A stretch of 64,000 bases of DNA from Escherichia coli. Its GTDB lineage: Bacteria > Pseudomonadota > Gammaproteobacteria > Enterobacterales > Enterobacteriaceae. The position numbers and the translations under genes were made by a program. This document shows positions 4,082-21,695 of this stretch, one piece after another. The stretch is from assembly GCF_041886205.1 (NCBI RefSeq), contig NZ_CP169029.1, one strand, 5' to 3'. Below the pieces are notes generated by a model. The model saw only the letters and a program-made list of their open reading frames with translations. It made no database searches and was not told where the DNA came from. Numbering within the stretch: position 1 is the first letter of the stretch; every line of letters starts with the position of its first letter.

Positions 4082-4389
4082 AGTTCTAAAAGCAGTTTTC
4101 AATGATAAATAAATGGCTATTTTTACGAAGAGATAATAACGTAGATTGAAACAATATGTATTATTGATTGAGTAAACGGGATTATTATTCACACTACATC
4201 CATTTTAGTGTCACTACCAAAGAAAAAGGGGCTACGTTTTCATGTAACCCCTTGATTTATTTGGTGGGCTGGCAGTGACTGAATTGGTGCTGTAATTGGT
4301 TGAAATATTTCATCTAATGTCTGGTTTAACTTTCCTTAGCTGCCTGAAAGTTTTTTGATCTCACCCAGCAATAACAGCGTTACGGTGCA

Positions 4390-4680
4390 CCACGACTGAC
4401 TGAAGAACTGCGTGCTCAGGGTTACCACTTCAACGTAAAACCGTGGCAGGAGGTCCGGACTGAAAAAACTGCTCAGGACATTATCGGCAGGGTACGCACT
4501 GGTAGTCTGTAAACTGAACCGACTGGGGCGCAGTATGTGGCATCTTGTCGTGCTGTTGGAGGAGCTGTGCGAACGTGGTATTAACTTTCGTGCTCTGGCC
4601 CAATCTATATTTGCCCAACAATGGGGGGACGGAAGCTGTAAAAGTAAAACAATCTGCGATCTCAGAGTTATTGTGTGATT
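4390..4680 (+). pseudogene. pinH: Serine invertase (Pin/Hin family) fragment, pinH-like pseudogene
   Basis: Translation KLNRLGRSMWHLVVLLEELCERGINFRALAQSI matches the resolvase/invertase catalytic-domain core; frameshifted upstream, no intact N-terminus or HTH. Confidence 0.7.
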
Positions 4681-5007
4681 TTTATGTGAGCAGAAGATAT
4701 TCATCAGAAACGATTATGTAAATCATTTTATTTTGCCGACTGCCTGATTGTCGAAAGAAAAGAATACGCCCGGGTTTCCTGAATAGATTGACTTTTTTAT
4801 CCAACCACACTTCAGCGCACTGCGTTTAAAAAATGCCTCATTCTTATGCGGAATATCATCATTTCATCATGATGTCTTTGATGAGCGGTGAACACAATAC
4901 ACTTGCGCTGTCTCTTCAGGATGAATCCCCTGGTCTGGTGCCTGTGGGCTGATGTTGCAGCAAAGCTAAGGTCGCTTAAACGCTACTCAGTATTCACTTT
5001 TCAGAGG

Positions 5008-8000
5008 ATGAAATTTATGAACAGGACCAGTCCCTATTATTTTCGCCGCTCAGTACTTTCCTTATTGATATCTGCCCTGATATATGCTCCGCCCGGGATG
5101 GCGGCCTTTACTACTAATGTTATTGGTGTGGTAAATGATGAGACTGTAGATGGCAACCAACGAGTAGATGAACGAGGTACAACAAATAACACTCATATTA
5201 TCAACCATGGCCAGCAGAGTGTTTATGGCGGAGTATCTAATGGAAGTATTATTGAATCGGGTGGATATCAAGATGTTGGAAGGAATAACAATTATATGGG
5301 GCAGTCTAATAATACAACCATTAACGGAGGAAGACAGACAATTCATGACGGGGGCATTTCCACCGGTACGATAATCGACAGTGGCAATCAGGACGTTTAT
5401 ACAGGTGGTATCAGCAATGGAACGACAATTAAGGGTGGTAATTCACACATAAGTGGGGGGACTGCGAATGGAACAATCATTGATGGTGGCAGCCAACGAG
5501 TAACAACGCAGGGGCATGTTGACAGTACAACGATAAATAAGTCTGGCTCTCAGGACATCACGCAAGGAAGTCTGGCGACGAACACAATCATAAATGGTGG
5601 ACGACAGTATGTTGAACAGAGCACAGTAGGAACAACCACCATTAAAAATGGCGGTGAGCAAAGAGTATATGAAAGCCATGCGCTGGACACGACGATTGAA
5701 GGTGGAACTCAGTCTCTGAATAATAAGTCAACGGCAAAAAATACTCAGATCTATTCTGGTGGTACGCAAATTGTTGATAACACCAGCACCTCGGATGTTA
5801 TTGAAGTTTATTCCGGTGGCGTGCTTGATGTTAGTGGTGGTACGGCAACAAATGTTACCCAGCACGATGGTGCAATTTTAAAAACAAACACTAACGGTAC
5901 GACGGTGAACGGTACGAATAGTGAAGGTGCATTCTCCATCCACAATCACGTGGCAGACAATGTGTTGCTGGAAAACGGTGGTCATTTAGACATAAACGCA
6001 TATGGTTCGGCAAACAAGACTATTATCAAAGATAAAGGAACAATGTCAGTTTTAACCAATGCTAAAGCTGATGCGACCCGAATAGATAACGGCGGGGTAA
6101 TGGATGTTGCCGGAAACGCGACCAATACCATAATTAATGGTGGCACACAGAATATTAATAATTATGGCATAGCCACGGGAACCAATATCAACAGCGGAAC
6201 GCAAAATATCAAGAGCGGCGGGAAAGCTGACACGACAATTATATCCTCCGGGAGCCGGCAGGTTGTTGAGAAAGATGGTACGGCAACTGGCAGCAATATT
6301 AGCGCCGGAGGCTCGCTGATTGTCTATACCGGCGGTATTGCACATGGGGTTAACCAGGAGACGGGCAGTGCTTTAGTTGCCAACACGGGTGCAGGGACTG
6401 ATATCGAAGGATACAACAAGCTCTCTCACTTCACTATTACCGGAGGGGAGGCTAATTATGTTGTGCTGGAAAATACCGGCGAACTGACGGTAGTGGCTAA
6501 AACCTCGGCGAAAAATACTACCATTGATACTGGCGGTAAGCTGATTGTCCAGAAGGAGGCTAAAACAGATAGCACCAGACTTAATAATGGCGGCGTTCTG
6601 GAGGTTCAGGACGGTGGTGAGGCTAAGCATGTTGAGCAACAATCCGGCGGCGCATTAATTGCTTCCACGACCTCCGGAACACTTATCGAAGGAACCAACA
6701 GTTATGGTGATGCTTTCTACATCAGGAATTCAGAAGCTAAAAATGTAGTGCTGGAAAACGCTGGCTCATTAACAGTCGTCACTGGTTCCCGGGCAGTTGA
6801 TACGATTATTAATGCCAATGGCAAAATGGATGTTTATGGAAAAGATGTTGGCACTGTACTTAATAGTGCTGGCACCCAAACAATATATGCCAGTGCCACT
6901 TCTGATAAAGCAAATATCAAAGGTGGCAAGCAAACGGTATATGGTTTAGCCACTGAAGCAAATATCGAAAGTGGTGAACAAATTGTTGATGGTGGGTCAA
7001 CAGAGAAAACACACATCAATGGTGGCACGCAAATCGTTCAGAATTATGGTAAGGCAATCAATACCGATATCGTCTCTGGCCTACAACAAATTATGGCAAA
7101 CGGGACAGCGGAAGGTTCCATTATTAATGGGGGTTCACAGGTAGTTAATGAGGGCGGTCTGGCTGAAAACTCGGTGCTTAATGACGGCGGCACACTCGAT
7201 GTGCGGGAGAAAGGCAGCGCAACGGGGATACAGCAGAGTAGCCAGGGCGCTTTGGTTGCAACCACCAGGGCGACGCGGGTCACAGGAACACGCGCGGATG
7301 GCGTCGCGTTCAGCATCGAGCAGGGTGCGGCGAACAATATCCTGCTGGCAAATGGCGGCGTGTTAACCGTGGAGTCAGACACCTCTTCTGACAAAACACA
7401 GGTCAATATGGGCGGACGGGAGATCGTCAAAACAAAAGCCACTGCGACAGGCACGACGCTCACCGGCGGTGAACAAATTGTCGAGGGTGTGGCGAATGAG
7501 ACAACAATTAACGACGGCGGAATACAAACAGTTTCAGCTAACGGAGAGGCAATAAAAACAAAGATCAATGAAGGCGGTACGCTGACAGTCAACGATAATG
7601 GCAAAGCGACAGATATCGTCCAGAACAGCGGTGCCGCTCTCCAGACGAGCACGGCTAACGGTATTGAAATCAGCGGTACTCACCAGTACGGTACTTTTTC
7701 CATTTCCGGCAATTTAGCGACCAATATGTTGCTGGAAAATGGCGGTAATTTATTGGTATTAGCAGGTACCGAAGCTCGCGACTCCACGGTTGGCAAGGGT
7801 GGGGCAATGCAAAACCTGGGTCAGGACTCCGCCACAAAGGTTAACTCTGGCGGGCAATATACCCTTGGGCGGTCAAAAGATGAGTTTCAGGCTCTGGCCC
7901 GGGCAGAAGATCTCCAGGTCGCTGGCGGTACGGCAATCGTCTACGCAGGTACGCTGGCGGATGCATCGGTCAGTGGCGCGACAGGAAGCCTGTCGTTAAT

Positions 8001-9597
8001 GACGCCACGGGATAATGTTACGCCAGTTAAACTCGAAGGGGCGGTCCGGATTACCGATAGCGCGACATTGACTCTGGGAAATGGCGTCGATACCACGCTT
8101 GCCGACCTGACGGCTGCCAGCCGGGGCAGTGTCTGGCTTAACAGCAATAATTCCTGTGCAGGTACCAGCAACTGCGAATATAGAGTAAACAGTTTGCTAC
8201 TCAACGACGGTGATGTTTATTTGTCAGCACAAACAGCAGCGCCTGCCACAACTAACGGTATCTACAATACGCTGACAACCAATGAACTTTCCGGTAGCGG
8301 TAATTTCTACCTGCATACCAACGTTGCAGGCTCCCGGGGCGATCAACTGGTCGTCAACAACAACGCCACTGGTAATTTTAAAATCTTTGTTCAGGATACC
8401 GGCGTCAGCCCACAGTCTGACGACGCGATGACGCTGGTGAAAACAGGGGGAGGGGATGCTTCGTTTACGCTGGGCAATACCGGCGGTTTCGTTGATCTTG
8501 GGACCTATGAGTATGTCCTGAAAAGTGACGGCAACAGCAACTGGAACCTGACCAATGATGTCAAACCCAACCCGGACCCCATCCCAAATCCAAAGCCAGA
8601 CCCAAAACCCGATCCAAAGCCAGACCCAAATCCAAAACCAGACCCTACTCCCGATCCAACGCCGACACCCGTTCCGGAGAAACGCATTACGCCTTCTACG
8701 GCAGCCGTACTCAATATGGCAGCAACATTACCGTTGGTATTTGATGCTGAGCTAAACAGTATTCGCGAGCGGTTGAACATAATGAAAGCGAGTCCACACA
8801 ACAATAATGTCTGGGGGGCGACGTATAACACCCGTAATAATGTCACCACCGATGCGGGTGCCGGGTTTGAGCAGACGCTGACCGGAATGACAGTGGGGAT
8901 CGACAGCCGTAATGATATTCCTGAAGGAATTACCACGCTAGGCGCTTTTATGGGCTATTCCCATTCACATATCGGTTTTGATCGCGGAGGACATGGCAGT
9001 GTGGGCAGTTATTCTCTGGGCGGCTATGCCAGTTGGGAACATGAAAGTGGTTTCTATCTGGACGGTGTCGTGAAGCTGAACCGTTTTAAAAGTAACGTAG
9101 CAGGTAAAATGAGCAGCGGTGGAGCCGCCAATGGCAGTTACCACAGCAACGGGCTGGGCGGTCACATTGAAACCGGGATGCGATTTACCGATGGTAACTG
9201 GAACCTGACGCCGTATGCATCGTTAACGGGGTTCACCGCTGATAACCCCGAATATCATTTATCCAATGGCATGGAATCGAAATCAGTCGATACCCGCAGT
9301 ATATATCGTGAACTGGGTGCAACGCTGAGTTACAACATGCGTCTGGGGAACGGTATGGAAGTTGAGCCGTGGCTGAAGGCGGCTGTGCGCAAAGAATTTG
9401 TCGATGATAACCGGGTGAAGGTGAATAATGACGGTAATTTCGTCAATGATTTGTCGGGCAGACGTGGAATATACCAGGCAGGTATTAAAGCCTCATTCAG
9501 TAGTACGTTAAGCGGGCATCTCGGGGTGGGGTATAGCCATGGTGCCGGTGTGGAATCACCGTGGAACGCGGTGGCTGGTGTGAACTGGTCGTTCTGA
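5008..9597 (+). CDS. ypjA: Large adhesin-like autotransporter (ypjA-like); start assigned to the signal-peptide Met, ORF opens at 4888
   Basis: Signal peptide (MKFMNRTSPYYFRRSVLSLLISALIYAPPGMAA), long passenger of about 19-residue Gly/Thr/Asn-rich repeats, Pro-Asp-Lys linker, C-terminal beta-barrel ending VNWSF. Confidence 0.85.
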   Translation: MKFMNRTSPYYFRRSVLSLLISALIYAPPGMAAFTTNVIGVVNDETVDGNQRVDERGTTNNTHIINHGQQSVYGGVSNGSIIESGGYQDVGRNNNYMGQSNNTTINGGRQTIHDGGISTGTIIDSGNQDVYTGGISNGTTIKGGNSHISGGTANGTIIDGGSQRVTTQGHVDSTTINKSGSQDITQGSLATNTIINGGRQYVEQSTVGTTTIKNGGEQRVYESHALDTTIEGGTQSLNNKSTAKNTQIYSGGTQIVDNTSTSDVIEVYSGGVLDVSGGTATNVTQHDGAILKTNTNGTTVNGTNSEGAFSIHNHVADNVLLENGGHLDINAYGSANKTIIKDKGTMSVLTNAKADATRIDNGGVMDVAGNATNTIINGGTQNINNYGIATGTNINSGTQNIKSGGKADTTIISSGSRQVVEKDGTATGSNISAGGSLIVYTGGIAHGVNQETGSALVANTGAGTDIEGYNKLSHFTITGGEANYVVLENTGELTVVAKTSAKNTTIDTGGKLIVQKEAKTDSTRLNNGGVLEVQDGGEAKHVEQQSGGALIASTTSGTLIEGTNSYGDAFYIRNSEAKNVVLENAGSLTVVTGSRAVDTIINANGKMDVYGKDVGTVLNSAGTQTIYASATSDKANIKGGKQTVYGLATEANIESGEQIVDGGSTEKTHINGGTQIVQNYGKAINTDIVSGLQQIMANGTAEGSIINGGSQVVNEGGLAENSVLNDGGTLDVREKGSATGIQQSSQGALVATTRATRVTGTRADGVAFSIEQGAANNILLANGGVLTVESDTSSDKTQVNMGGREIVKTKATATGTTLTGGEQIVEGVANETTINDGGIQTVSANGEAIKTKINEGGTLTVNDNGKATDIVQNSGAALQTSTANGIEISGTHQYGTFSISGNLATNMLLENGGNLLVLAGTEARDSTVGKGGAMQNLGQDSATKVNSGGQYTLGRSKDEFQALARAEDLQVAGGTAIVYAGTLADASVSGATGSLSLMTPRDNVTPVKLEGAVRITDSATLTLGNGVDTTLADLTAASRGSVWLNSNNSCAGTSNCEYRVNSLLLNDGDVYLSAQTAAPATTNGIYNTLTTNELSGSGNFYLHTNVAGSRGDQLVVNNNATGNFKIFVQDTGVSPQSDDAMTLVKTGGGDASFTLGNTGGFVDLGTYEYVLKSDGNSNWNLTNDVKPNPDPIPNPKPDPKPDPKPDPNPKPDPTPDPTPTPVPEKRITPSTAAVLNMAATLPLVFDAELNSIRERLNIMKASPHNNNVWGATYNTRNNVTTDAGAGFEQTLTGMTVGIDSRNDIPEGITTLGAFMGYSHSHIGFDRGGHGSVGSYSLGGYASWEHESGFYLDGVVKLNRFKSNVAGKMSSGGAANGSYHSNGLGGHIETGMRFTDGNWNLTPYASLTGFTADNPEYHLSNGMESKSVDTRSIYRELGATLSYNMRLGNGMEVEPWLKAAVRKEFVDDNRVKVNNDGNFVNDLSGRRGIYQAGIKASFSSTLSGHLGVGYSHGAGVESPWNAVAGVNWSF

Positions 9598-9607
9598 CCA
9601 TCAACGA

Positions 9608-9630
9608 AAAAGCCCACATCTGTGGGCTTT
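9608..9630 (+). terminator. Hairpin downstream of ypjA (AAAGCCCACA-tctg-TGTGGGCTTT)
   Basis: Perfect 10-bp inverted repeat 11 nt after the stop codon; weak U-tract. Confidence 0.4.
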
Positions 9631-9760
9631 CATGTTACCAGGAGCCGCGGCTCTTTTGCGTATCCTGTTTTGTCTCCTCACCGTCTGGTCGGTGTCCTGC
9701 TGAGGCTGCTAACTTCCTGTTTTTGTTGGTGTTGTCCTTACACCGTCCAATCATGATTGG

Positions 9761-9771
9761 GCTGGCGGAGT
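9761..9771. other. Putative distal att core (imperfect repeat of ssrA 3' end)
   Basis: GCTGGCGGAGT resembles GCTGGCGGGAGT at the tmRNA 3' end (window 21340-21351); short and imperfect. Confidence 0.3.
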
Positions 9772-9825
9772 CTGAATAACATTTGCAACATAATGTTTTT
9801 ATTGTTTATTTTCCAATTCAACTTT

Positions 9826-9853
9826 CATTGGTATACCTAAGCGTATACCAATG
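9826..9853. repeat. Inverted repeat CATTGGTATAC-ctaagc-GTATACCAATG; candidate integrase arm-type site
   Basis: Perfect 11-bp arms; near-identical motif recurs at 21199-21223 at the opposite end of the element. Confidence 0.5.
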
Positions 9854-9937
9854 GCGATTTGTTGCAATGATTCCTGTGGTTAAGCGAACTTGTTGTTGAA
9901 TAGCTCACATCAAGAAAAAAACTTTTTTTACGGAAAA

Positions 9938-10030
9938 CTGTTCACACTGTTCACTCGCCATTATTTGTCTTTAATTTCAATGTGATATACGGTGAATAGT
10001 CCGTGAACAGTGAACACTTTACTGTTCACT
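9938..10030. repeat. Cluster of TGTTCAC iterons (P4 ori-like, alpha-binding type)
   Basis: At least five copies of TGTTCAC/GTGAACA in both orientations just downstream of the alpha gene. Confidence 0.6.
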
Positions 10031-10040
10031 TTCCGGGATT

Positions 10041-10070
10041 TCAGGTAAAAAAAGACCGGCTGATGCCGGT
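10041..10070 (-). terminator. Rho-independent terminator downstream of alpha
   Basis: On minus strand GACCGGCATCAGCCGGTC hairpin followed by TTTTTTT. Confidence 0.55.
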
Positions 10071-10079
10071 CCGGGTAGG

Positions 10080-12413
10080 TTATGTCGCGGTGGTTTCGTC
10101 GCACCGGGGCAGCCAGTCGGCGTTGCTTTCCTCCCTGAGCGCAAGGTTCGTCTGCATCCCCTGATTTGTTCGCCGCCTGGCGTAATTCAGCCCGTACTCT
10201 TTCAGCATCGATGACAGCCCTTTGCCGAACATGGTCAGGCTGAGGGTGTTCTTGTAGCCGTGCGCCTCCATGTAAACCAGATAGGCGTGATACAGGTACA
10301 GGCGCGGCTGTCGCGGGATGATATTCGCATTCCCCATGTACATACCGTCAGGCTCGGGCAGCGCCTCCAGATAGCCACAAAAATCGAATGTCGGGTCAGC
10401 GTCGCGCTTGATGCTGAGTGCCTCGTCGGAGTTCTGCTGCGACTGGAGCAGTGTGCGCGCGGTCATCGGGTCGCTGAACGTCTGCATAAGCTGACGCACG
10501 ATGACGGCCAGCTCGCGGGCAATTTTATCTTTCAGCTTCGGGTCACGCTCCTCCGGGGCAATCTGTTCCGGGAAGTGCATTATCACCCGGCGACGCGACA
10601 CGCCGCCGCTGCGGTCGGTGAAGCGCATCGGATTGTTGTTTACGGCCAGTATCACCGCCGGAATATGGGTGGAGTACGCATCGCGGTATTTCGGGTCAAC
10701 CGAGACCGCATCCCCGCCGGTGATGGCCTTGAGTCCTGCCCCGTCACCGCTCCATTTCTCCTGGTCAGGCAGACGTATCAGCGAGAAGCCAATCAGCGCC
10801 GCGCGCTCGCGGGGGGATTCCAGCGTTTCGATAGTCGCTGACGTGGCGTTATCTTCCCCGGCGAGCATGGTCGCTATTTCGGCCAGAATACTTTTCCCGC
10901 TGCCACCGGGACCGGTCACTTCGAGGAAGAGCTGCCAGTCGTAGCGGTTCGCCAGCACCATAAACAGCGCGGCGAGTATCACGTCACGTTTATCGGCACG
11001 CGAACCGGCGGCGCGGTCGAGCCAGCGCCAGAAATTCGGCGCGTGCGTCTCCAGCGTTTCCCCCTCCACCGGCGGGGTGAAATCCACGTCGCACAGGGTG
11101 CGCAGCCAGTGCGTTTTGCTGTGCGGGCTGAATATACCGGTACTGGTATCAAGCACGCCGTTGCGAAAGCCAATCAGCCGCCGTGGCGGGGCATCCTGCT
11201 GCGGAATAATCAGTTTCAGGGTGTCCACCACCGAGGCAATTTTCCCCGACGAAAACGGGGCGCGCAGACGCTGGAACAGCCCGGCCACGTCGCGCGCAAA
11301 GTCTGACGGCGGAATGATTTTCCATATACCGGCTTCATAGCGGGACAGGAGCTGCCCGTTCGCATCCACCGCCAGCGCTTCGCCGTAATGCTCATGCACC
11401 CGCATGGCTTTCTCACTGGTGCTCATGGCGGTAAATTCCGCCTCGCTCATGGTAGAGAAAGGGCTTTCAGCCGGTGGCCGGATGGCGTCATACATGGCTT
11501 TACGCGTGGCCTCCCCACCGTGCTGTGTATACGCATCATTCCAGTCACCGAACACCGGCGGCAGGGCGACCACGCCCTCACAGGACTCTGCGGCCGCAGA
11601 CGCTTTGGTCTGGCCGTCGCCGTTAAGGTCACGGTCGGCGGCAATGACAATCCGGCAGGCCGGGTATTTGTGACGGGCAAGGCTCGCCAGAGAAAGGAGG
11701 TTCACCGACGACAGCGCCACCATGACGGTTTCGCCGGTCAGGTGATGCACGGTGAGCGCGGTCGCGTAGCCCTCCGCTATCCACAGCCGTTTTCCCGCCT
11801 CTTTTTTCCCGTCGAGAATATGACATGTCCCTTTTACCTGCCCCCCTTTCAGGGTGCGCTTGAGACCGTCCGCGTTAATGAGCTGGACGTTAACCAGTGC
11901 GCCGCTATCGTCATACAGCGGGACAACCACATCCCCGGCACGGTACGTCACACCGCCGGTTTTGTGCATGGCCGTCAGTACCTGACATTCCCGGCCGGGA
12001 AAGCCCTTGCGGGTGAGGTAGGCGTTGCCGGTGGCCGGTTGGGTTTTCTCCATCAGTCTGGCGGCCAGCGCGGCCGCCGCTTTGCGGTCGGCCTCCGTTT
12101 CAGCGTCTGCGGCCGCAGTCACCGCCGGGGATACCGGAGGCAGGTTGCCGGTCACGGCGTTCACCTTCCCGGCCGCCTCTGACGGGGTCACGCCGAACAC
12201 TTTCTCAACCAGTTTCAGACCGTCCCCCGCGCCGCACTGGTTACAGAACCACGTCCCGCGTCCCTCCTTATCGTCAAAGCGAAAGCGGTCGGAGCCGCCA
12301 CACACCGGACAGGCCTGATGACGGTTTTTGATGACCGTTACCCCCAGCGCCGGGAGAATGCGCGGCCAGTGGCCGCACGCCTGTTTCACGGTGTCCGTTA
12401 CGTTCATTTTCAT
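10080..12413 (-). CDS. P4 alpha-like primase-helicase (777 aa)
   Basis: N-terminal zinc-binding cysteine pairs (CPVCGG ... CNQCG), central primase region, Walker A (GPGGSGKS) helicase domain; size identical to P4 alpha. Confidence 0.9.
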   Translation of the reverse strand: MKMNVTDTVKQACGHWPRILPALGVTVIKNRHQACPVCGGSDRFRFDDKEGRGTWFCNQCGAGDGLKLVEKVFGVTPSEAAGKVNAVTGNLPPVSPAVTAAADAETEADRKAAAALAARLMEKTQPATGNAYLTRKGFPGRECQVLTAMHKTGGVTYRAGDVVVPLYDDSGALVNVQLINADGLKRTLKGGQVKGTCHILDGKKEAGKRLWIAEGYATALTVHHLTGETVMVALSSVNLLSLASLARHKYPACRIVIAADRDLNGDGQTKASAAAESCEGVVALPPVFGDWNDAYTQHGGEATRKAMYDAIRPPAESPFSTMSEAEFTAMSTSEKAMRVHEHYGEALAVDANGQLLSRYEAGIWKIIPPSDFARDVAGLFQRLRAPFSSGKIASVVDTLKLIIPQQDAPPRRLIGFRNGVLDTSTGIFSPHSKTHWLRTLCDVDFTPPVEGETLETHAPNFWRWLDRAAGSRADKRDVILAALFMVLANRYDWQLFLEVTGPGGSGKSILAEIATMLAGEDNATSATIETLESPRERAALIGFSLIRLPDQEKWSGDGAGLKAITGGDAVSVDPKYRDAYSTHIPAVILAVNNNPMRFTDRSGGVSRRRVIMHFPEQIAPEERDPKLKDKIARELAVIVRQLMQTFSDPMTARTLLQSQQNSDEALSIKRDADPTFDFCGYLEALPEPDGMYMGNANIIPRQPRLYLYHAYLVYMEAHGYKNTLSLTMFGKGLSSMLKEYGLNYARRRTNQGMQTNLALREESNADWLPRCDETTAT

Positions 12414-14005: not shown

Positions 14006-14403
14006 AAGGCAACCTCCTTCGAGTAGCAAATTATTGCTATCGCCGGAGTTCTCACGCTCAGTGGCGATAGCCCAGACGGGGGTGAGAATACCGGCCTCGA
14101 AGAATACCGGCCAGCCCGAGGGCTGCCCCGCCTGAGCTACCATTGACATGACAGCATGATATGCGATTGCGGACAGGAGACACAAAGTGACGTCTGCACG
14201 ACGATCCGCACACCACGCCATTATCTGGCGCTCTGTGGCGTTAGTTGCGACACAAAAAAAGACGCATGGCGCGTCTGGTGTCGCCTTCGAGTTACTCGGG
14301 TTCTCACGCCCGGTTACCGATTTTGCGGCAACAGCAAAACTGTACCAGGAAACACACAACGGATGCAAGCCAGAAAAAGGGGCTTTGTGAAATCGGCTCT
14401 GAT

Positions 14404-14944: not shown

Positions 14945-15050
14945 CAGTGAACAGTAGTGAACAGTTGGTGAACACTTTTCTCTCAACTGTTCACTCTTTA
15001 ATTTATTGTTTTATTTATATTTTTATACTGAGTGAACAGTAGTGAATAGT
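14945..15050. repeat. Second TGTTCAC iteron cluster in the divergent vis/sid control region (crr-like)
   Basis: Six copies of GTGAACA/TGTTCAC in an AT-rich intergenic region about 5 kb from the first cluster. Confidence 0.5.
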
Positions 15051-15218
15051 TATATGTAAAAAAACAAATAGAGTGAGGGGTTTTCCTGCGACCTTTCTCT
15101 GGCCAGCCGGGTTTTTAAGTCCTGTTTGTGCCATGTCTGCGACAACGGCAATGAATCGAGTTGTTGTCTGAGGGACGGCAGAATGGCGTCAGGTTGAAAA
15201 CACAGAGAGAACCCGACG

Positions 15219-16022
15219 ATGAAACCAGATTTGTTTACCGCAGTAATGAAAACCATCGGCAGCACGCAGGATGAGAACATCCGCACGGCCATTGACAGCG
15301 CACTGGATACCCTTAACGAGAAAGCAAACCAGAACGCAGAGGCCACGATAAATAATGCGCTTGAGGCATTCAGCAAGGCCAAATCCGCGCACACGGAAAA
15401 TATGCTGAAACTGAATGATATTGATGCGGCCATTACCCGCAGTGAGAAAGAGCGTCAGAACGCCCTGAATGAAAGTGCCGAAGCGGAACAGAACTGGCGT
15501 ACCCGTTTTCGCGAACTGCGCGGCATGATGACCCCGGAACTGAAAGCCGAACACAGTCAGCGAGTGGCCGGTCGGGAGCTGGCGGAGGAATTCACCGCCC
15601 TGATTGATGAGCTCAACGATGATAAAGCCAGTACCATGCTGGCCGCCTGTACATCAGGAGATAAGTACGTCGGCACGCATTTTACGGTGTTCTCTGCCTA
15701 CTCCCGGAATGAGTGGGCGACCGTGATGAAAGACATCCCTCCCTCACTGGTGCGCGCATTTGCGTTACGTCTGCGTGAACTCGAAATGAAAGGAGAAGAA
15801 CACCCTCACAACGTTCTCATTCAGGAACTGGGGGAGAATGTACTGGCGCAAAGCAGGTACTACACATTCAACATGGCGCAGGAGCCGGTAATTTCAAAAA
15901 TTGGGCTTCACCGTCCGGCACTCACCGGCGTGGATATGAAACTCTATAAAAGCCCGGTTCTCAGAATGGCGCGGGCTAAAGAGCTGGCACAGAAGAAAAA
16001 ATCGCGGGGGGTTAAGCCATGA
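15219..16022 (+). CDS. sid: Sid-like capsid size-determination (external scaffold) protein
   Basis: Similarity to P4 Sid (NWRTRFRELRGMMTPELKAEHSQRVAGRELAEEF); first gene of sid-delta-psu. Confidence 0.75.
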   Translation: MKPDLFTAVMKTIGSTQDENIRTAIDSALDTLNEKANQNAEATINNALEAFSKAKSAHTENMLKLNDIDAAITRSEKERQNALNESAEAEQNWRTRFRELRGMMTPELKAEHSQRVAGRELAEEFTALIDELNDDKASTMLAACTSGDKYVGTHFTVFSAYSRNEWATVMKDIPPSLVRAFALRLRELEMKGEEHPHNVLIQELGENVLAQSRYYTFNMAQEPVISKIGLHRPALTGVDMKLYKSPVLRMARAKELAQKKKSRGVKP

Positions 16023-16261
16023 TGCGCTGTCCGTACTGCAAACAGGCTGCCCATGTCCGTACCAGCCGTTACCTGTCGGATAACGTCAAACAGAGCTACC
16101 TCCAGTGCGTGAATGTCTTTTGCTCCGCAACCTTTCGCACCACCGAGTCTATCGACGAGGTAATACGGCCACCGGCAGAAGAAAAGCCCGAACCGCCGCA
16201 GACAGTACCAGAAACACCGCCCCGAATTCTGGACTGCGCCCGGTCATCGCTGCGCCACTGA
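16019..16261 (+). CDS. Delta/Ogr-type zinc-finger late transcription activator
   Basis: MMRCPYCKQAAHVRTSRYLSDNVKQSYLQCVNVFCSATF with C-x2-C ... C-x4-C pattern typical of P2 Ogr/P4 Delta; 4-nt overlap with sid. Confidence 0.85.
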   Translation: MMRCPYCKQAAHVRTSRYLSDNVKQSYLQCVNVFCSATFRTTESIDEVIRPPAEEKPEPPQTVPETPPRILDCARSSLRH

Positions 16262-16277: not shown

Positions 16278-16853
16278 ATGGCACGAGCACTACTGGAACA
16301 GGCCTTTGAAACCTGTCAGAAGAATAAATCGGACTGGGTGAGCAGCAAGTCAGCACTGGCGCGGGCTGAAATGGCGCTGAAAGAGCTGGAGCTGACCTGC
16401 ACCCGTTATGAACCGGAGGCCGCACAGGCGCTGCGGGATGATATTGACCTGAAAAAATGGGCGGTAAATCAGTCGGCCGGGCAGTACATCCGGTCACATG
16501 AGGCCGTGCAGCGTATCAGTATCCGGCGTCAGCTCCACGCCTTTATGCAGGTAAGCGGCGACGCGCTGGCCGCCGCACTGGCACCGGAATTAATGCATCT
16601 CTGCGAACAACCTGACATTGTCAGAGAACGGGCTCTCGACCGGGCGGCCGCCAGTGTTCGCGAAGCGCTGTCCGTTTATGTAACCCGCGGAGGAAATATT
16701 GATTACGCAGAGGATGATCGCGACATTCTGACAACCATCGGTTTCCGGCCTGACAGAGCATCGAGAGACGACAACCGGGCAAAATATACGCCTGAACAGA
16801 GTCAGATTTTCATGCGCCGACAGGCCGCGCAGACCCGCAAAAAATCCGCATAA
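16278..16853 (+). CDS. psu: Psu-like polarity suppression / capsid decoration protein
   Basis: KWAVNQSAGQYIRSHEAVQRISIRRQL and ALAAALAPEL and DILTTIGFRPD match P4 Psu; 191 aa. Confidence 0.85.
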   Translation: MARALLEQAFETCQKNKSDWVSSKSALARAEMALKELELTCTRYEPEAAQALRDDIDLKKWAVNQSAGQYIRSHEAVQRISIRRQLHAFMQVSGDALAAALAPELMHLCEQPDIVRERALDRAAASVREALSVYVTRGGNIDYAEDDRDILTTIGFRPDRASRDDNRAKYTPEQSQIFMRRQAAQTRKKSA

Positions 16854-17036: not shown

Positions 17037-17113
17037 TGCGCGCCAAGCGATATATAATTAATTAATGAAGAAGGATAGAATTAACCATATAGCCATAAAA
17101 AAGGATGCGGGTG

Positions 17114-18685
17114 ATGAAGGCGAGTGATATGCAGCACTTATGTAATATAGCCAGAGAGCTTGTTTCTGATGGCAAGTTTGAAAAGGCGTATGAGTTCACG
17201 TTGCAGATTTATAAATCCCTTGACGAAAATATCTTTGGGGATAATTACTATATACTTCTTTATAATATGGCTGCGAATTTTGTTGATATAGGAGGAATGC
17301 AACCGAATAAAGAGGCTTCTCTGCTAGGCTATAACTTAATGAATGAGCACTTTGACTCTTTTTCTAAAATTATGGATGAATCTACGCTCTATTATAACCT
17401 AGCAAACGCAAAGTCAAACTTGGTTGAAAAAGGCAGTGTTTTTAAACAAACGTTTACAACAATTGAGGATATGGTGGATGTAAAAAATTTATACTGGAAG
17501 GCATTTAAATTACTCGGTGATGATAATACTATATATAGCAAAGAACTGAAGGTCAATTTAGCAAACTCACTCAAGCAACAGTTTAGAGTTGTAGAGTCTA
17601 TTTCATATTATGATGATGTTATTTCCTCGGGGGAAGATATACCGCAAGCATGGATTAACAGGTCTGAAGCCTTAATGCTATTGCTGCAACTCTCTGGTTC
17701 TCATACTATAAAGCATATAAGAGAGATTAGACTTGGATATATGAAAGCAATTGAATCAACAGAGATGCCACCGCCATGGAAACCACACTTTCAATCACGT
17801 GCTGAAAAACTCACGGAAGATATAATCGAAATGTCGGGAAAACCATTTTTTGAAAAAGAAGATGAGCTTGATGAAAAACAGACGCTAGAAGAATATAGCA
17901 AACTTAATAATTATCAAAAATTCGTTTTAGATAACCACTTTGTTCTTTCTGAGCATGGGGTGTATTGTCCTTGCGTAGTTGGGGCTAAAGATAACCTAAC
18001 AATATTACCAACACATAATGATGTTTCTGGTGATTTTATTATTCCCATGGAAATGGTTTTGAATAGGCTAAAGTCTGAATATGCTTTGGCAAGGCGCTCG
18101 TTATTCGAGTATGAGTACATGGAGGAAGTTGATGATGTGGCCTGTTATTCAGAGTTGTATAACGATGAAGTTTTAAATGTTGGTGTTGAGAAGATAAGAA
18201 ATGCATTTCGTATATGTTTTGGTGTGTTAGATAAAATAGCTATTGCAATATGTGAGTTATACGATGTTTATCCAGCCAATAAAATAGTGTACTTTGAAAA
18301 TTTTTGGCAATTAAACCAAAATGGGCGAAGGGATAAGTTTGAAGAAATAAAAACTCCAGCTTTACTGGCTTTATATAGTCTAGCTACTGACCTAAATGAT
18401 AGAAAGAATGGTGAATTATCCTTTTATAAGGATTGGAGAAATGATTTGGAACATAATATAGTGATCGTTCATAAAGATTGCGAGCCTTTAGATATATATA
18501 ATTCCTACGGTTACATGAAGAATATTAGGTTGATATCGGAGTCTGATTTTACTAGACATTTTAAAGTGTTATTGCAAATAGTACGCTCAGCAATTTTTCT
18601 TTTTACCTTTATGGTAAGAGAAGAGGGGGGTAAAAGTAACAAGGATTCATTTTTGATATCAAACTCACTAGATTGGAAAATATGA
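17114..18685 (+). CDS. Cargo protein A (523 aa): TPR-like N-terminal half, C-terminal Rx4H HEPN-like motif; function unknown, candidate defence protein
   Basis: AT-rich ORF with AAGGA 8 nt before ATG at 17114 (ORF opens at 17105); helical repeat-like N-terminus; motif WRNDLEHN near C-terminus; lies in the cos/psu-int variable slot. Confidence 0.7.
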   Translation: MKASDMQHLCNIARELVSDGKFEKAYEFTLQIYKSLDENIFGDNYYILLYNMAANFVDIGGMQPNKEASLLGYNLMNEHFDSFSKIMDESTLYYNLANAKSNLVEKGSVFKQTFTTIEDMVDVKNLYWKAFKLLGDDNTIYSKELKVNLANSLKQQFRVVESISYYDDVISSGEDIPQAWINRSEALMLLLQLSGSHTIKHIREIRLGYMKAIESTEMPPPWKPHFQSRAEKLTEDIIEMSGKPFFEKEDELDEKQTLEEYSKLNNYQKFVLDNHFVLSEHGVYCPCVVGAKDNLTILPTHNDVSGDFIIPMEMVLNRLKSEYALARRSLFEYEYMEEVDDVACYSELYNDEVLNVGVEKIRNAFRICFGVLDKIAIAICELYDVYPANKIVYFENFWQLNQNGRRDKFEEIKTPALLALYSLATDLNDRKNGELSFYKDWRNDLEHNIVIVHKDCEPLDIYNSYGYMKNIRLISESDFTRHFKVLLQIVRSAIFLFTFMVREEGGKSNKDSFLISNSLDWKI

Positions 18686-18814
18686 AAACATTACGTTGCA
18701 AGTATATCTTGTATTCGTTCAACTTTGACCTGACACACCTCTGGCACAAAGCCCCAATCTCATAGGCGGTTCTATGCCAGGGGCTGAAAGTCTGTCTCTG
18801 GTAACATACACTTA

Positions 18815-19801
18815 TTATGTTATATTGAGGAAATCTGGGATATTAGCTGGTTCAAGGTCAAAAATATATTTAATGATTCCGGCTTTTAGGTTCTCCTCAA
18901 TTCCTTTCCTGAAATCTAGAATACTTGAGATTGTTGCATCATGTTGTAAATGATGTCGCCAGTGAACATCTTTTTCTCGACTATGAAAAGATAACAATCG
19001 GGTTAGAGCCATATGTGCGAACATTCCTGATTGTTCATCGATTGTATAATGGGCAACCACGTGGGAATCAGAATATGATTCTTTCGTAGAAAGATCCCAA
19101 GAATGAAATAATTGCTGAGCAATTGGTGATAGATCCCTTATTTGTTCATTTCTTCCGTTAGTGAAGTAAACATCATCTATGACGGTATGCCAGTTTTCTT
19201 GTGTCCCTTCATCTGTTTCAATGGTTTCAATAATATTTTCTTTCTTGAAACTTATATGAACACCTGAATTAACTTGTGGAGTGTAGGTGAAGTCACCTAA
19301 AACTTTACTCATTAAGCTATTACGCATTGCATCATTGAAATTAAGATTGAAATTTGTTTTTGCCTTTGTAAATAAATCTAGATCTACCAGGCTCCAAATT
19401 CCATGTCTTCTCCAGGCAATTAAAACGGGCAGCCCTAATAATTGGCCGTAAGCTCTTAATCTGGACACGTAATCTGGACGAAAAGACAAAACATTTCCCA
19501 TGTAAGATTTAACTTCAATCAAAACAGTAGTCTTGCCTGCGCCACGCACATTAAAATTTGCTAGTAAATCTGGAACCTGAAAAGTCTTGTTAGAAGTAGT
19601 TGGATACTGCTGTTGATCCAATTTATGGACTAGGTTGCATTGACCTAGCCAACCACAGATAATCGAAAACTCGTCTTCTAACGGGAGGCCAATATTAAGT
19701 CTATTTACACGTTCAGCGATAGCCTTAGCGTCAGCCTCCCAACCCAGTTGCTCTAGAGATTCATGTATAAGTCTCTCTAAATCTGTCGGCTTATCTTTCA
19801 A
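18815..19801 (-). CDS. Cargo protein B (328 aa): putative PD-(D/E)xK-fold nuclease; function unknown, candidate defence protein
   Basis: AT-rich ORF; VPDLL ... 16 residues ... VLIEVKS fits the PD-(D/E)xK spacing; convergent with protein A. Confidence 0.7.
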   Translation of the reverse strand: MKDKPTDLERLIHESLEQLGWEADAKAIAERVNRLNIGLPLEDEFSIICGWLGQCNLVHKLDQQQYPTTSNKTFQVPDLLANFNVRGAGKTTVLIEVKSYMGNVLSFRPDYVSRLRAYGQLLGLPVLIAWRRHGIWSLVDLDLFTKAKTNFNLNFNDAMRNSLMSKVLGDFTYTPQVNSGVHISFKKENIIETIETDEGTQENWHTVIDDVYFTNGRNEQIRDLSPIAQQLFHSWDLSTKESYSDSHVVAHYTIDEQSGMFAHMALTRLLSFHSREKDVHWRHHLQHDATISSILDFRKGIEENLKAGIIKYIFDLEPANIPDFLNIT

Positions 19802-19960
19802 GGTAGCTCCCTATAGGTTTAGTTCGAACTCAATAAGTTATATGTCATTAACATATTACAAAGTTATGCCATTATCGCTTAAAGCCGATCATCATGTAAG
19901 AATACATTATATCCGTGGCAACGGTTAGTGCTAATTCACAGATATACTGAGCAAAAATTT

Positions 19961-21148
19961 TTAATGATTTACTTTATCTCCCCACCAATCCATCAACTCA
20001 ACTCTTTGAAGTAAATAAGTTGAACGGTTGTAAGCTTTTCGAACTTCATTTTTGTCTGAGTGTGCTAATGCTGCTTCAATAACATCAGAATTAAATCCGG
20101 CTTCATTGAGTGCAGTACTTGCGATGGACCGTAACCCGTGAGCAACTAATTTCCCACCATAACCAATACGCTTAAGTGCGGCATTAGCAGTCTGACTATT
20201 CATTGGTTGCTTAGGGTTATTTCTGCTGGGAAAAACATGTTCACGGTGAGCGCTGATTGGTTTCATCACTTCCAGAATATCTAACGCCTGAGGAGATAGT
20301 GGGACTATGTGCTCACGCTTAGCTTTCATCCGTTCGGCAGGAATTGTCCAGAGCTTTGCATCAAGATCGATCTCTGCCCACCGGGTACTGGAAGCCTCAG
20401 AAGGGCGCACAAGGGTCAGGAGTTGCCATTCGATTAGACAGCGAGTCGGAACAGACAGATTTGACATGACTAAAGAACGCATCAGCTTCGGCAATTCTTC
20501 TGGCCGCAACGTCGGCATGTTTTGCTTTTTGGGCTTCTCAAAGGCCATGCCAACACCGGATGCTGGATTGGCATCAATCAGACCAGTGTTTACGGCATAA
20601 ATCATGATTTCGTTAATGCGCTGCACCAGTCGACGTACAGTCTCAAGCGCCCCACGTGCTTTTATTGGCTCAAGGGCTTCAACCAAAGTTCGGGCTTTGA
20701 TTTGCTGAACGGGGATCTCACCGATGGCAGGGAATACATCTTTCTCCAGTGAACGCCAAATGTCTTTTGCGTAATCAGGGGTAACGCTTTTGCTTTTGAG
20801 ATGGAACCAGTTAGCGGCGACCGTTGAAAAAATACTGTCCAGAGCGATTTGCTGCTGTTCCTCTGCAACTTCGGCCTGAATTTGCGGGTCAATTCCGTTG
20901 GCTAACAAGGCAAGGTAATCCGCTCTTAACCCTCGGGCGTCAGCAAGTGAGAGGGCGGGGAAAGCACCTAGCCCCATCATTGTCCGCTGTTTTGTCGCCG
21001 GACGTTGATAACGGAAACGCCAGAGCTTTTTCCCGCTGGTTTTCACTATCAGGAAAAGGCCATCGCCATCATGCAGCGTTAGATCCTTCTCTAACGCTTT
21101 AGCGCGCAGAACTTCGGTGTTGGTCAGGGGGCGTGTTGTCCGTGCCAC
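19961..21148 (-). CDS. int: P4-family integrase (IntA-like) next to ssrA
   Basis: 395 aa; N-terminal LWRFRYQRPATKQRTMMGLGAFPALSLADAR arm-binding-like domain; catalytic C-terminal domain; immediately downstream of tmRNA 3' end. Confidence 0.9.
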   Translation of the reverse strand: MARTTRPLTNTEVLRAKALEKDLTLHDGDGLFLIVKTSGKKLWRFRYQRPATKQRTMMGLGAFPALSLADARGLRADYLALLANGIDPQIQAEVAEEQQQIALDSIFSTVAANWFHLKSKSVTPDYAKDIWRSLEKDVFPAIGEIPVQQIKARTLVEALEPIKARGALETVRRLVQRINEIMIYAVNTGLIDANPASGVGMAFEKPKKQNMPTLRPEELPKLMRSLVMSNLSVPTRCLIEWQLLTLVRPSEASSTRWAEIDLDAKLWTIPAERMKAKREHIVPLSPQALDILEVMKPISAHREHVFPSRNNPKQPMNSQTANAALKRIGYGGKLVAHGLRSIASTALNEAGFNSDVIEAALAHSDKNEVRKAYNRSTYLLQRVELMDWWGDKVNH

Positions 21149-21332: not shown

Positions 21333-21695
21333 TGGTGGAGCTGGCGGGAGTTGAACCCGCGTCCGAAATTCCTACGTCCTCGGTACTACATGCTTAGTCA
21401 GTCTTTACATTCGCTTGCCAGCTGCGGACGGACACGCCACTAACAAACTAGCCTGATTAAGTTTTAACGCTTCAACCCCAGGCAGGGCTTCCACGCGATC
21501 TCTTTTGGGTTTGACCTCTCTTGATCCCCGTCCTAAGAGCGGAGGCTAGGGAGAGAGGGCTCTAAGCAGGTTATTAAGCTGCTAAAGCGTAGTTTTCGTC
21601 GTTTGCGACTATTTTTTGCGGCTTTTTACGAGGCCAACCGCCCCTCGGCATGCACCTTGGGTTTCGCAAATCCCGTCGAATCCAGAATCAGCCCC
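21333..21695 (-). ncRNA. ssrA: tmRNA (SsrA), 363 nt
   Basis: Reverse complement begins GGGGCTGATTCTGGATTCGACGGGATTTGCGAAACC and ends GGTTCAACTCCCGCCAGCTCCACCA; ANDENYALAA tag template region present. Confidence 0.95.

What the first reader, a model, noticed from the sequence alone, without database searches (positions are those of the whole stretch)
18815..19801. Cargo protein B: putative PD-(D/E)xK nuclease of unknown family
The segment FQVPDLLANFNVRGAGKTTVLIEVKSYMG has a hydrophobic strand ending in PD followed 16 residues later by a hydrophobic strand with E-V-K, the classic PD-(D/E)xK arrangement of restriction-endonuclease-fold nucleases. The C-terminal two-thirds has no obvious motif. 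The gene is AT-rich and sits next to the integrase.
Basis: inference. Interest (0 to 1): 0.7.

Follow-up and report, generated by a model that had tools for sequence, protein, structure and literature searches.

The report
Stand-alone Hjc-like nuclease defence cassette
The gene encodes a predicted DNA-cutting enzyme built like an archaeal Holliday-junction resolvase plus an undescribed second domain, and it travels as a one-gene cassette between the anti-phage "hotspots" of many mobile elements, so it is a good but untested candidate for a new single-gene phage-defence system.

Summary
ORF 18815-19801 (-) encodes 328 aa with the motif at residues 74-102. D78, E96 and K98 are 99-100% conserved in 210 homologues, as are E42 and E44.

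The gene lies in the psu-int defence hotspot of a P4-like satellite at ssrA in E. coli. It is an autonomous unit. A ~1.2 kb block (about 18727-19929, covering most of a promoter-like site and a 3' hairpin) recurs at 80-84% nucleotide identity in several other mobile elements. These include a P2 prophage hotspot, a GMT island, a plasmid and an ICE. In 57 loci no neighbour family recurs in more than 4. Neighbours are often known defence genes.

The convergent HEPN neighbour (17105-18685) accompanies it only in the P4 cassette. No PADLOC model matches, and no experimental work was found.

Best reading: an uncharacterised single-gene defence nuclease with unknown trigger and substrate. Moderately interesting.

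The parts
18815..19801 (-). ORF B, 328 aa, TTG start: Hjc-like PD-(D/E)xK nuclease with an undescribed C-terminal domain
   Evidence: ORF listed. Homologues are about 330 aa and align full-length. Purifying selection, dN/dS about 0.1.
19685..19801 (-). Residues 1-39: N-terminal two-helix extension (conserved DLERLIHE.LEQLGW), absent from Hjc
   Evidence: Model helices 8-19 and 25-37, pLDDT 57-74. Conservation.
19307..19684 (-). Residues 40-165: Hjc-like restriction-endonuclease-fold catalytic domain (alpha1, beta1-3, alpha2, beta4-5)
19670..19678 (-). E42-D43-E44 in helix alpha1: candidate first acidic catalytic residue, as in the Hjc alpha1 glutamate
   Evidence: E42 98% and E44 96% conserved in 210 homologues. 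Helix 40-52 in the model. The equivalence to the Hjc alpha1 Glu is inferred, not superposed.
19496..19582 (-). E96-V97-K98
   Evidence: D78 and K98 100%, E96 99% conserved. IEVK aligns to Hjc IEVK, and VPD / IEVKS align to the same motifs of S. tokodaii ST1444.
18818..19306 (-). Residues 166-328: acidic C-terminal domain with no described family (long beta-hairpin plus a winged-helix/RRE-like part)
19906..19934 (-). Promoter-like site TTAGCA-17 nt-TATAAT upstream of B
   Evidence: Consensus scan, 10 of 12 matches. The number of such sites in the region is not above chance. The -10 region is shared with the Serratia P2 and Yersinia GMT copies.
19807..19811 (-). GGGAG ribosome-binding site 5 nt before the TTG start
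   Evidence: Sequence. Conserved in most of the aligned cassettes.
18740..18782 (-). Hairpin just after the stop codon. It is part of the cassette and has no T-run, so it is not a canonical intrinsic terminator.
   Evidence: The 116-nt 3' flank (18700-18815) that holds the hairpin folds at -34.5 kcal/mol, z -2.85. The stem arms CTGGCA.AGA / T.TGTGCCA are conserved in 5 of 7 cassettes.
18727..19929 (-). Extent of the mobile single-gene cassette: nucleotide homology shared with copies in other kinds of mobile element
   Evidence: blastn shows 84% identity to the Serratia P2-prophage copy over query positions 172-1374. Similar blocks occur in a GMT island, a plasmid, an ICE and a P2 end. Homology stops before gene A.
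17105..18685 (+). Context only: convergent neighbour A, 526 aa, with a C-terminal HEPN_LA2681 domain. Not a partner of B.
   Evidence: Pfam PF18733 at E 3.2e-35. The Rx4H motif RNDLEH is at residues 445-450. A is adjacent to B only in P4 cassettes and absent from every other B locus.
19961..21148 (-). Context: P4-type integrase next to ssrA (tmRNA 21333-21695)
   Evidence: phrog_1 integrase at E 1.2e-68. tmRNA found.
16278..16853 (+). Context: psu-like gene marking the other border of the P4 hotspot
   Evidence: phrog_6366 'polarity suppression Psu-like' at E 6.7e-62. Pfam Psu on the identical gene in L027-L030.

Best explanation
B is an autonomous single-gene anti-phage (or anti-invader) DNA endonuclease carried as hotspot cargo by a P4-like satellite.

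Shown:
- A restriction-endonuclease-fold domain of the Hjc type, with a complete and conserved E...PD...ExK site.
- A second, family-specific acidic domain.
- Strong purifying selection on both domains.
- A 1.2 kb cassette that covers most of a promoter-like site and a 3' hairpin, and that has moved between the defence or cargo slots of several kinds of mobile element.
- No conserved partner gene.
- Frequent known defence genes as neighbours.

Inferred:
- The protein acts as an Hjc-like homodimer that cuts DNA in a metal-dependent way.
- The conserved weak TTG start keeps its level low.
- The C-terminal domain gates or directs the nuclease. It may hold it inactive or off host DNA until an infection-specific cue appears, such as a phage protein or a phage DNA structure or modification.
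- Cutting then blocks phage replication, either directly or through host DNA damage (abortive infection).

The trigger and the substrate are unknown.

For: Functional gene: dN/dS is about 0.1 overall, 0.05-0.09 for the N-terminal domain and 0.12-0.19 for the C-terminal domain.

Hotspot location: psu, delta, a sid-position gene that matches a Psu-like PHROG, alpha primase, integrase, ssrA and C4 RNA identify a P4-like satellite, and B lies between psu and int. That locus is an experimentally supported reservoir of defence systems (PMC9122126; bioRxiv 10.64898/2026.02.27.708500).

Autonomy: the cassette homology 18727-19929 is shared with these loci:
- a Serratia P2-like prophage, in the portal-gpA slot where P2 carries old and tin (L001; L031);
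- a Yersinia island with two tandem integrases and a 624-aa gene, a GMT-like layout (L012);
- a Kosakonia plasmid (L014);
- a Pantoea ICE (L020).
Among 57 loci no neighbour cluster occurs in more than 4.

Defence neighbourhood:
- Gabija-like genes and a Tn7-CRISPR element (L008).
- Gabija, CBASS and mCpol-Cap15 (L024).
- AbiE and Gabija-like genes (L018).
- Lamassu in a Kosakonia ssrA-adjacent island that shares an integrase and smpB-side genes with the window (L033).
- 11 of 20 sampled large neighbours hit PADLOC models.

Regulatory-domain idea: the C-terminal domain is acidic (net -11, family median -7) and less conserved than the nuclease (21% against 39% identity among distant members). 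Its significant AFDB50 matches are nearly all proteins of this size, many named restriction endonuclease or Hjc.

The TTG start is conserved in 8 of 8 cassettes.
Against: - There is no experimental evidence for nuclease activity or phage protection, for this protein or for any homologue I could find.
- How a solitary nuclease would spare host DNA is unexplained.
- The C-terminal domain shows no sign of positive selection (omega 0.12-0.19). An arms-race sensor is therefore not indicated.
- tblastn finds no copy in 50,697 deposited phage genomes and only 8 in 72,556 plasmids. blastn finds none in 5,426 complete E. coli genomes. The gene is rare.
- Guilt by association in hotspots is suggestive only. 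In published tests a sizeable fraction of hotspot cargo gave no phenotype.
- Dimerisation and interdomain geometry were not examined.
Confidence: 0.55

Rival explanations
1. It is a solitary restriction endonuclease in the classical sense. Either it is a modification-dependent (Type IV) enzyme whose C-terminal domain reads modified phage DNA, with a nuclease-plus-winged-helix layout like DpnI, or it is an orphan Type II enzyme whose methyltransferase lies elsewhere.
For: - Several sources name homologues 'restriction endonuclease'.
- It is a stand-alone nuclease in defence islands with no partner, as Type IV enzymes are.
- In P. aeruginosa a D12-class adenine methyltransferase lies two genes upstream (L004-L007).
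Against: - The C-terminal domain is strongly acidic, which is unusual for a primary DNA-binding module.
- No methyltransferase, or any other gene, recurs next to it in 57 loci.
- The best structural relatives are structure-specific resolvases, not sequence-specific restriction enzymes.
Confidence: 0.2
2. It is a housekeeping enzyme of the mobile element: a Holliday-junction or branched-DNA resolvase, like RusA, RecU or T7 endonuclease I. In this reading it serves replication, recombination or packaging of the element rather than defence.
For: The closest structures are Hjc, Hje and RecU junction resolvases, with almost the whole Hjc fold retained. The gene is found in prophages, plasmids and ICEs.
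Against: - It sits in the variable cargo slots (P4 psu-int, P2 portal-gpA), not in replication or packaging modules.
- It is sporadic and rare: 0 of 5,426 complete E. coli genomes and 0 of 50,697 phage records, although P4 and P2 elements are common.
- The carrier elements differ completely in their replication and packaging biology.
- The extra 160-aa domain and 40-aa N-terminal extension are absent from known resolvases.
- Its neighbours are defence genes.
Confidence: 0.1
3. B and the convergent HEPN_LA2681 protein A form one two-gene system, for example an RNase and a DNase that regulate each other or act as a toxin-antitoxin-like pair.
For: A and B are adjacent in all P4 copies seen. They stay together in a diverged variant where both proteins are about 90-91% identical to the window's (L025, L026). 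Both are AT-rich.
Against: - They are convergent, with 129 bp between the stop codons.
- B homologues at 41-87% identity occur without any A homologue in all other loci examined. One is an ssrA-adjacent island in Kosakonia that shares an integrase and smpB-side genes with the window, where B sits beside Lamassu-like genes instead.
- Nucleotide homology of the B cassette to copies in other elements ends before A.
Confidence: 0.05
4. It is a catalytically active or inactive PD-(D/E)xK module used for something other than phage defence, for example a selfish or addiction function, inter-element competition, or a nucleic-acid sensor.
For: Hotspot cargo is not always defensive (PMC9122126). Inactive REase folds can act as sensors in immunity proteins (PMC12839542). 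The gene also lies near plasmid leading-region genes, including anti-restriction genes (L014-L017).
Against: The catalytic residues are essentially invariant, which argues for an active enzyme. Its neighbourhood is consistently defence-rich.
Confidence: 0.1

Closest known systems
Archaeal Holliday junction resolvase Hjc (Pfam PF01870, NCBIfam NF040854; PDB 2wcw, 1hh1, 1gef) and its relatives Hje and RecU
   Different: - Sequence similarity is marginal: 20.3 bits against a curated cut-off of 70.
- B is 328 aa, with an extra 39-aa N-terminal extension and a 163-aa C-terminal domain.
- The loci recovered are almost all bacterial, many on mobile elements or in defence islands, not an archaeal housekeeping gene.
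- Junction specificity is untested.
[quoted passage not shown]
   Same: Both are one-gene PD-(D/E)xK proteins carried as cargo of mobile islands. A B homologue sits in a GMT-like island in Yersinia (L012). This is a plausible functional analogue: a nuclease gated by a non-catalytic domain.
   Different: GAPS1 has its nuclease domain near the C-terminus, with D313 and K328. B has it near the N-terminus, with D78 and K98.
Shedu (SduA, DUF4263) and other stand-alone nuclease defences in PADLOC
   Same: Single-protein defence built on a PD-(D/E)xK nuclease plus a regulatory or sensing domain.
   Different: No PADLOC v2 model, SduA included, matches B or ten diverse homologues. The domain order and the second domain differ.
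DpnI / Mrr-type modification-dependent restriction enzymes
   Same: Solitary PD-(D/E)xK nuclease fused to a second small domain with winged-helix-like features, and no cognate methyltransferase.
Cargo of the P4 psu-int and P2 portal-gpA hotspots (Rousset et al. 2022, PMC9122126; 2026 preprint 10.64898/2026.02.27.708500)
   Same: Same loci and the same pattern of exchangeable AT-rich cassettes. Many unannotated cassettes from these loci protected against phages when tested.
   Different: This cassette is not among the systems named in the text of either paper that I read. The supplementary locus tables were only keyword-searched.

Membership tests
PD-(D/E)xK (restriction-endonuclease-like) superfamily | alpha-beta-beta-beta-alpha-beta core fold | tested here: met
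PD-(D/E)xK (restriction-endonuclease-like) superfamily | Conserved acidic and lysine residues: D at the start of beta2 and (D/E)xK in beta3 | tested here: met
   D78 100%, E96 99% and K98 100% conserved in 210 homologues. Upstream E42 and E44 are 98% and 96% conserved.
PD-(D/E)xK (restriction-endonuclease-like) superfamily | Divalent-metal-dependent phosphodiester cleavage | not testable with these tools
   Requires purified protein and nuclease assays.
Hjc Holliday junction resolvase (PF01870 / NF040854) | Sequence match above the family's curated threshold | tested here: not met
   NCBIfam gives 20.3 bits against a cut-off of 70. Pfam gives i-E 0.073 for the query. Homologues score 18-30 bits, although 21 of 35 reach Pfam E <= 1e-3.
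Hjc Holliday junction resolvase (PF01870 / NF040854) | Hjc three-dimensional fold | tested here: met
Hjc Holliday junction resolvase (PF01870 / NF040854) | Small single-domain protein (about 120-140 aa) of archaea with a housekeeping role | tested here: not met
   B is 328 aa with two extra regions. The loci recovered are almost all bacterial, many of them on mobile elements or in defence islands.
Hjc Holliday junction resolvase (PF01870 / NF040854) | Homodimer that makes paired nicks specifically in four-way junctions | not testable with these tools
   No multimer prediction or biochemistry was available.
Type II / Type IV restriction endonuclease | Linked cognate methyltransferase (Type II) | tested here: not met
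   No neighbour protein cluster recurs in more than 4 of 57 loci. A D12 methyltransferase lies nearby only in the P. aeruginosa island.
Type II / Type IV restriction endonuclease | Recognisable modified-base or DNA-sequence reader domain (Type IV) | tested here: inconclusive
GAPS1 | PD-(D/E)xK domain toward the C-terminus (D313, K328) | tested here: not met
   B's site is D78/K98 in the N-terminal half.
GAPS1 | Sequence homology to WP_005477165.1 | not tested
   The sequence could not be retrieved with these tools.
Known or candidate defence systems in PADLOC-DB v2.0.0 | Match to any of 5,027 models | tested here: not met
   No hit at E <= 1 for B. For ten diverse homologues the only hit is a spurious DpdH match at E 0.0036.
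P4-satellite hotspot cargo | Located between psu and int of a P4-like element integrated at a tRNA or tmRNA gene | tested here: met
   psu 16278-16853, delta 16019-16261, alpha primase 10080-12413, int 19961-21148. tmRNA 21333-21695 and C4 antisense RNA 14060-14147. The same layout is seen in L027-L030.
Two-gene system with HEPN_LA2681 protein A | Co-occurrence of the two genes across divergent loci | tested here: not met
   A is present only in the P4 cassettes and absent from all other B loci.

The most novel reading that the evidence does not exclude
A junction-resolvase fold has been recruited as a one-gene immune effector that recognises foreign DNA by structure, not by sequence or methylation. 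The dimeric Hjc-like domain would cut the branched replication or recombination intermediates that phages produce in bulk. A new acidic C-terminal domain would act as an autoinhibitor or DNA mimic that a phage factor releases. This would be a previously undescribed defence family with its own sensor domain, spreading as a 1.2 kb cassette across P4, P2, GMT islands, plasmids, ICEs and Tn7-like elements.
Probability: 0.2. Interest if true: 0.7.

Novelty: new variant of a known kind. Interest (0 to 1): 0.48.

Why it matters
If the cassette protects against phages, it adds a compact single-gene system of about 1 kb to the defence repertoire. Its effector would be an Hjc-type resolvase fold, and its second domain has no described relatives.

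It would also be a clean example of one defence gene moving on its own, apparently with its own promoter, between the hotspots of very different mobile elements. It would give a tractable model for how a lone nuclease tells phage from host.

Practically, the family (444 clusters at 50% identity, mostly Proteobacteria) is currently invisible to PADLOC and is annotated as 'hypothetical' or generically as 'restriction endonuclease'.

Tried and rejected
- PADLOC, PHROGs and NCBIfam on B gave nothing except weak Hjc hits.
- The single-sequence PDB search gave only noise.
- tblastn against 50,697 phage records found nothing. Megablast and blastn against 5,426 complete E. coli genomes found only the flanks.
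- I tested a two-gene A+B system and rejected it: A is absent from all non-P4 loci.
- I considered identity with GAPS1 and rejected it on domain order.
- The HEPN-TPR system tested by Rousset et al. (pFR83) has the opposite domain order from A and, by eye, an unrelated N-terminal sequence. No alignment was run.
- I considered that the 3' hairpin might be an integron attC-like site. There are no R''/R' core sites, and the conservation covers only the inner stem, so I dropped the idea.
- I looked for att direct repeats of the satellite and found none with a 12-nt seed.
- I looked for positive selection on the C-terminal domain and found none (omega 0.12-0.19).
- Literature searches for Hjc-like defence proteins found only unrelated cases: HmaA NOV_C and BrxHII.

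Full report
**1. What is at the coordinates**

ORF 18815-19801 on the - strand encodes 328 aa. It starts with TTG, five bases after a GGGAG. TTG is the start in all eight orthologous genes compared, including one at only 73% protein identity.

The quoted segment is residues 74-102, window 19496-19582. The gene has 37.3% G+C, against 49.6% for the window. It lies 160 bp downstream of a tyrosine integrase on the same strand.

**2. Is the motif real?**

Database searches found 269 homologues in a 90%-clustered collection and 444 clusters at 50% identity. Nearly all are about 330 aa and align end to end.

In 210 full-length members of 25-90% identity, P77, D78 and K98 are invariant. E96 is 99% conserved and V97 97%. 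An upstream E42-D43-E44 is 98%, 89% and 96% conserved.

The query matches Hjc only weakly: NCBIfam E 3.7e-4 (20.3 bits against a cut-off of 70) and Pfam i-E 0.073. However, 21 of 35 homologues match Pfam Hjc at E <= 1e-3. A family profile finds Hjc 2wcw in the PDB at E 0.002, with IEVK aligned on Hjc's IEVK. It also aligns VPD and IEVKS to the same motifs of S. tokodaii ST1444.

**3. Structure**

Residues 40-165 are therefore a complete Hjc-type PD-(D/E)xK domain. Residues 1-39 form two extra helices.

In AFDB50 the significant matches to this domain are almost all proteins of about 270-420 aa. Many are named restriction endonuclease, Hjc or HSDR_N-domain protein, so it appears to sit behind a PD-(D/E)xK domain.

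The domain is acidic: net charge -11 in the query and a family median of -7. It is less conserved than the nuclease domain, 21% against 39% identity among distant members. Both domains are under purifying selection. dN/dS is 0.05-0.09 for the N-terminal domain and 0.12-0.19 for the C-terminal domain.

**4. Genomic setting**

The flanking chromosome is E. coli: recN to smpB is 100% identical to several strains. The element at ssrA is a P4-like satellite. Its parts are:
- tmRNA at 21333-21695;
- integrase, psu-like gene, Ogr/Delta-like gene, a second Psu-like gene in the sid position, an AlpA-like gene and the alpha primase;
- a C4 antisense RNA at 14060-14147.

B and a convergent gene A occupy the interval between psu and int. 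Rousset et al. showed that this interval is a hotspot of anti-phage systems (PMC9122126). In a 2026 preprint, 6 of 8 randomly chosen unannotated cassettes from this interval protected against phages.

**5. B is an autonomous one-gene cassette**

Nucleotide homology between the window and copies in other elements covers only about 18727-19929. That is roughly 128 bp upstream of the start and 88 bp downstream of the stop, and it ends before gene A.

The block covers most of a promoter-like site, TTAGCA-17-TATAAT at 19934-19906. The -35 hexamer begins 5 nt outside the block. This is consensus-level evidence only. The block also contains a conserved hairpin after the stop codon.

The same gene occurs in these settings:
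- the portal-gpA slot of P2-like prophages (Serratia L001/L038 and IMG/VR L031);
- the end of another P2-like prophage (L021);
- a Yersinia island with two tandem integrases and a 624-aa gene, a GMT-like layout (L012; compare);
- a plasmid region near ArdA (L014-L017);
- an ICE (L020);
- beside a Tn7-CRISPR element and Gabija-like genes (L008);
- between Gabija/CBASS and mCpol-Cap15 (L024);
- between AbiE and Gabija-like genes on an Agrobacterium plasmid (L018);
- next to Lamassu-like genes in a Kosakonia ssrA-adjacent island that shares an integrase and smpB-side genes with the window (L033).

I clustered all neighbour ORFs from 57 loci. No family recurred in more than four loci. Of 20 large flanking proteins sampled, 11 matched PADLOC models: Lamassu, HerA, SduA-like, CBASS-effector-like and PDC candidates.

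The exact protein is a multispecies Enterobacteriaceae 'hypothetical protein', seen on 232 contigs. It is nonetheless absent from 5,426 complete E. coli genomes and from 50,697 phage records.

**6. Relation to gene A**

A (17105-18685) has a C-terminal HEPN_LA2681 domain at E 3.2e-35, with the motif RNDLEH. In the literature that HEPN family is listed as fused to or linked with TPR repeats.

A stays next to B in a P4 variant in which both proteins are about 90% identical to the window's. It is missing from every other B locus. A and B are therefore two independent cargo genes that share a hotspot.

**7. Mechanism**

Shown:
- an intact, conserved Hjc-like catalytic domain;
- a second conserved domain of unknown type;
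- a self-contained cassette;
- a defence-rich neighbourhood.

Inferred:
- a metal-dependent, probably dimeric, DNA endonuclease kept at a low level by the TTG start;
- activity gated or directed by the acidic C-terminal domain;
- restriction of phage or other invading DNA, directly or by abortive infection.

I put about 0.9 on 'PD-(D/E)xK nuclease of Hjc type', about 0.55 on 'single-gene defence nuclease', and much less on any specific trigger.

The rivals are a Type IV or orphan restriction enzyme (0.2), a housekeeping resolvase of the element (0.1), another non-defence role (0.1), and a two-gene system with A (0.05).

**8. Comparison with known systems**

- By fold it is closest to Hjc, but it fails Hjc membership on sequence threshold, size and biology.
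- It resembles GAPS1 in concept, but the domain order is reversed.
- No PADLOC v2 model matches B or ten diverse relatives.
- Literature searches found no study of this family.

I rate it a new variant of a known kind (stand-alone nuclease defence cargo) and of moderate interest. It is typical of the many unannotated hotspot cassettes. It is unusually well defined as a mobile single-gene unit, and it carries an undescribed second domain.

Noticed in passing
window 17105-18685 (+): Gene A, 526 aa. It has a helical (TPR-like by literature) N-terminal part and a C-terminal HEPN_LA2681 domain (E 3.2e-35) with the motif RNDLEH at residues 445-450. No PADLOC hit. It is an independent candidate RNase defence gene that shares the hotspot, and it is 91% identical in a diverged P4 cassette (L025).
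   Followed up: partly
window 14060-14147 and 14255-14332 (-): Rfam hits to C4 antisense RNA (74 bits), which is the family of the P4 immunity RNA by my own knowledge (no paper was checked), and to isrK (68 bits). Both fit an intact P4-like immunity region.
   Followed up: no
window 4888-9597 (+), repeats at 8563-8670 and 5928-7745: A 1569-aa ORF with six overlapping copies of a 42-nt repeat, 12-18 nt apart, in a proline- and lysine-rich stretch, and four diverged 54-nt repeats. It looks like a large repetitive surface or autotransporter-type protein beyond the alpha-primase side of the satellite. No PADLOC hits for it or for ORFs 429-1838 and 2732-4081. The 2-5 kb region is AT-rich (GC 0.35-0.42).
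   Followed up: partly
window 18740-18782 (-): A hairpin directly after B's stop codon. Its stem arms are conserved in 5 of 7 cassettes from different mobile elements, and it has no following T-run. Its function is unknown (terminator, RNA stability element or recombination site).
   Followed up: partly
L069, L072, L074 (Pseudomonas spp.), around 5800-10300: In a Pseudomonas subclade (38-40% identity) the B homologue overlaps an upstream 551-aa gene whose N-terminus matches CBASS-type endonuclease effector and PDC-M68A models. In L069 and L074 it also abuts a downstream 590-aa gene matching PDC-S49. This is a possible operon in which the B family has been recruited into a multi-gene system.
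   Followed up: partly
L045 4040-6244, L070 2302-4059; L054/L061/L063/L064: HerA-like ATPases lie upstream of B homologues in a Marinobacter MAG (two genes upstream) and a Chloroflexota MAG (immediately upstream, 28-bp gap). A 670-710-aa mad8/HerA-like protein recurs near B in four alphaproteobacterial loci. This recalls the HerA-plus-nuclease defence pairs.
   Followed up: no
L004-L007 (P. aeruginosa), 3510-9023: An integrase island with an AAA_15/AAA_21 ATPase, a D12 adenine methyltransferase, a 209-aa protein and the B homologue, all on the same strand. This is the only locus where a methyltransferase lies close to B.
   Followed up: no
window 14946-14966 and 15031-15051: Two copies of AGTGAACAGTAGTGAA(C/T)AGTT, 85 bp apart, upstream of the sid-position gene. 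They may be regulatory sites of the satellite's late promoter.
   Followed up: no
L033 (Kosakonia arachidis), 2263-8987: An ssrA-adjacent island that shares an integrase and smpB-side genes with the window carries Lamassu-like LmuA and LmuB genes followed by an 87%-identical B gene. This shows the cassette combined with a different system in what appears to be the same kind of hotspot.
   Followed up: partly
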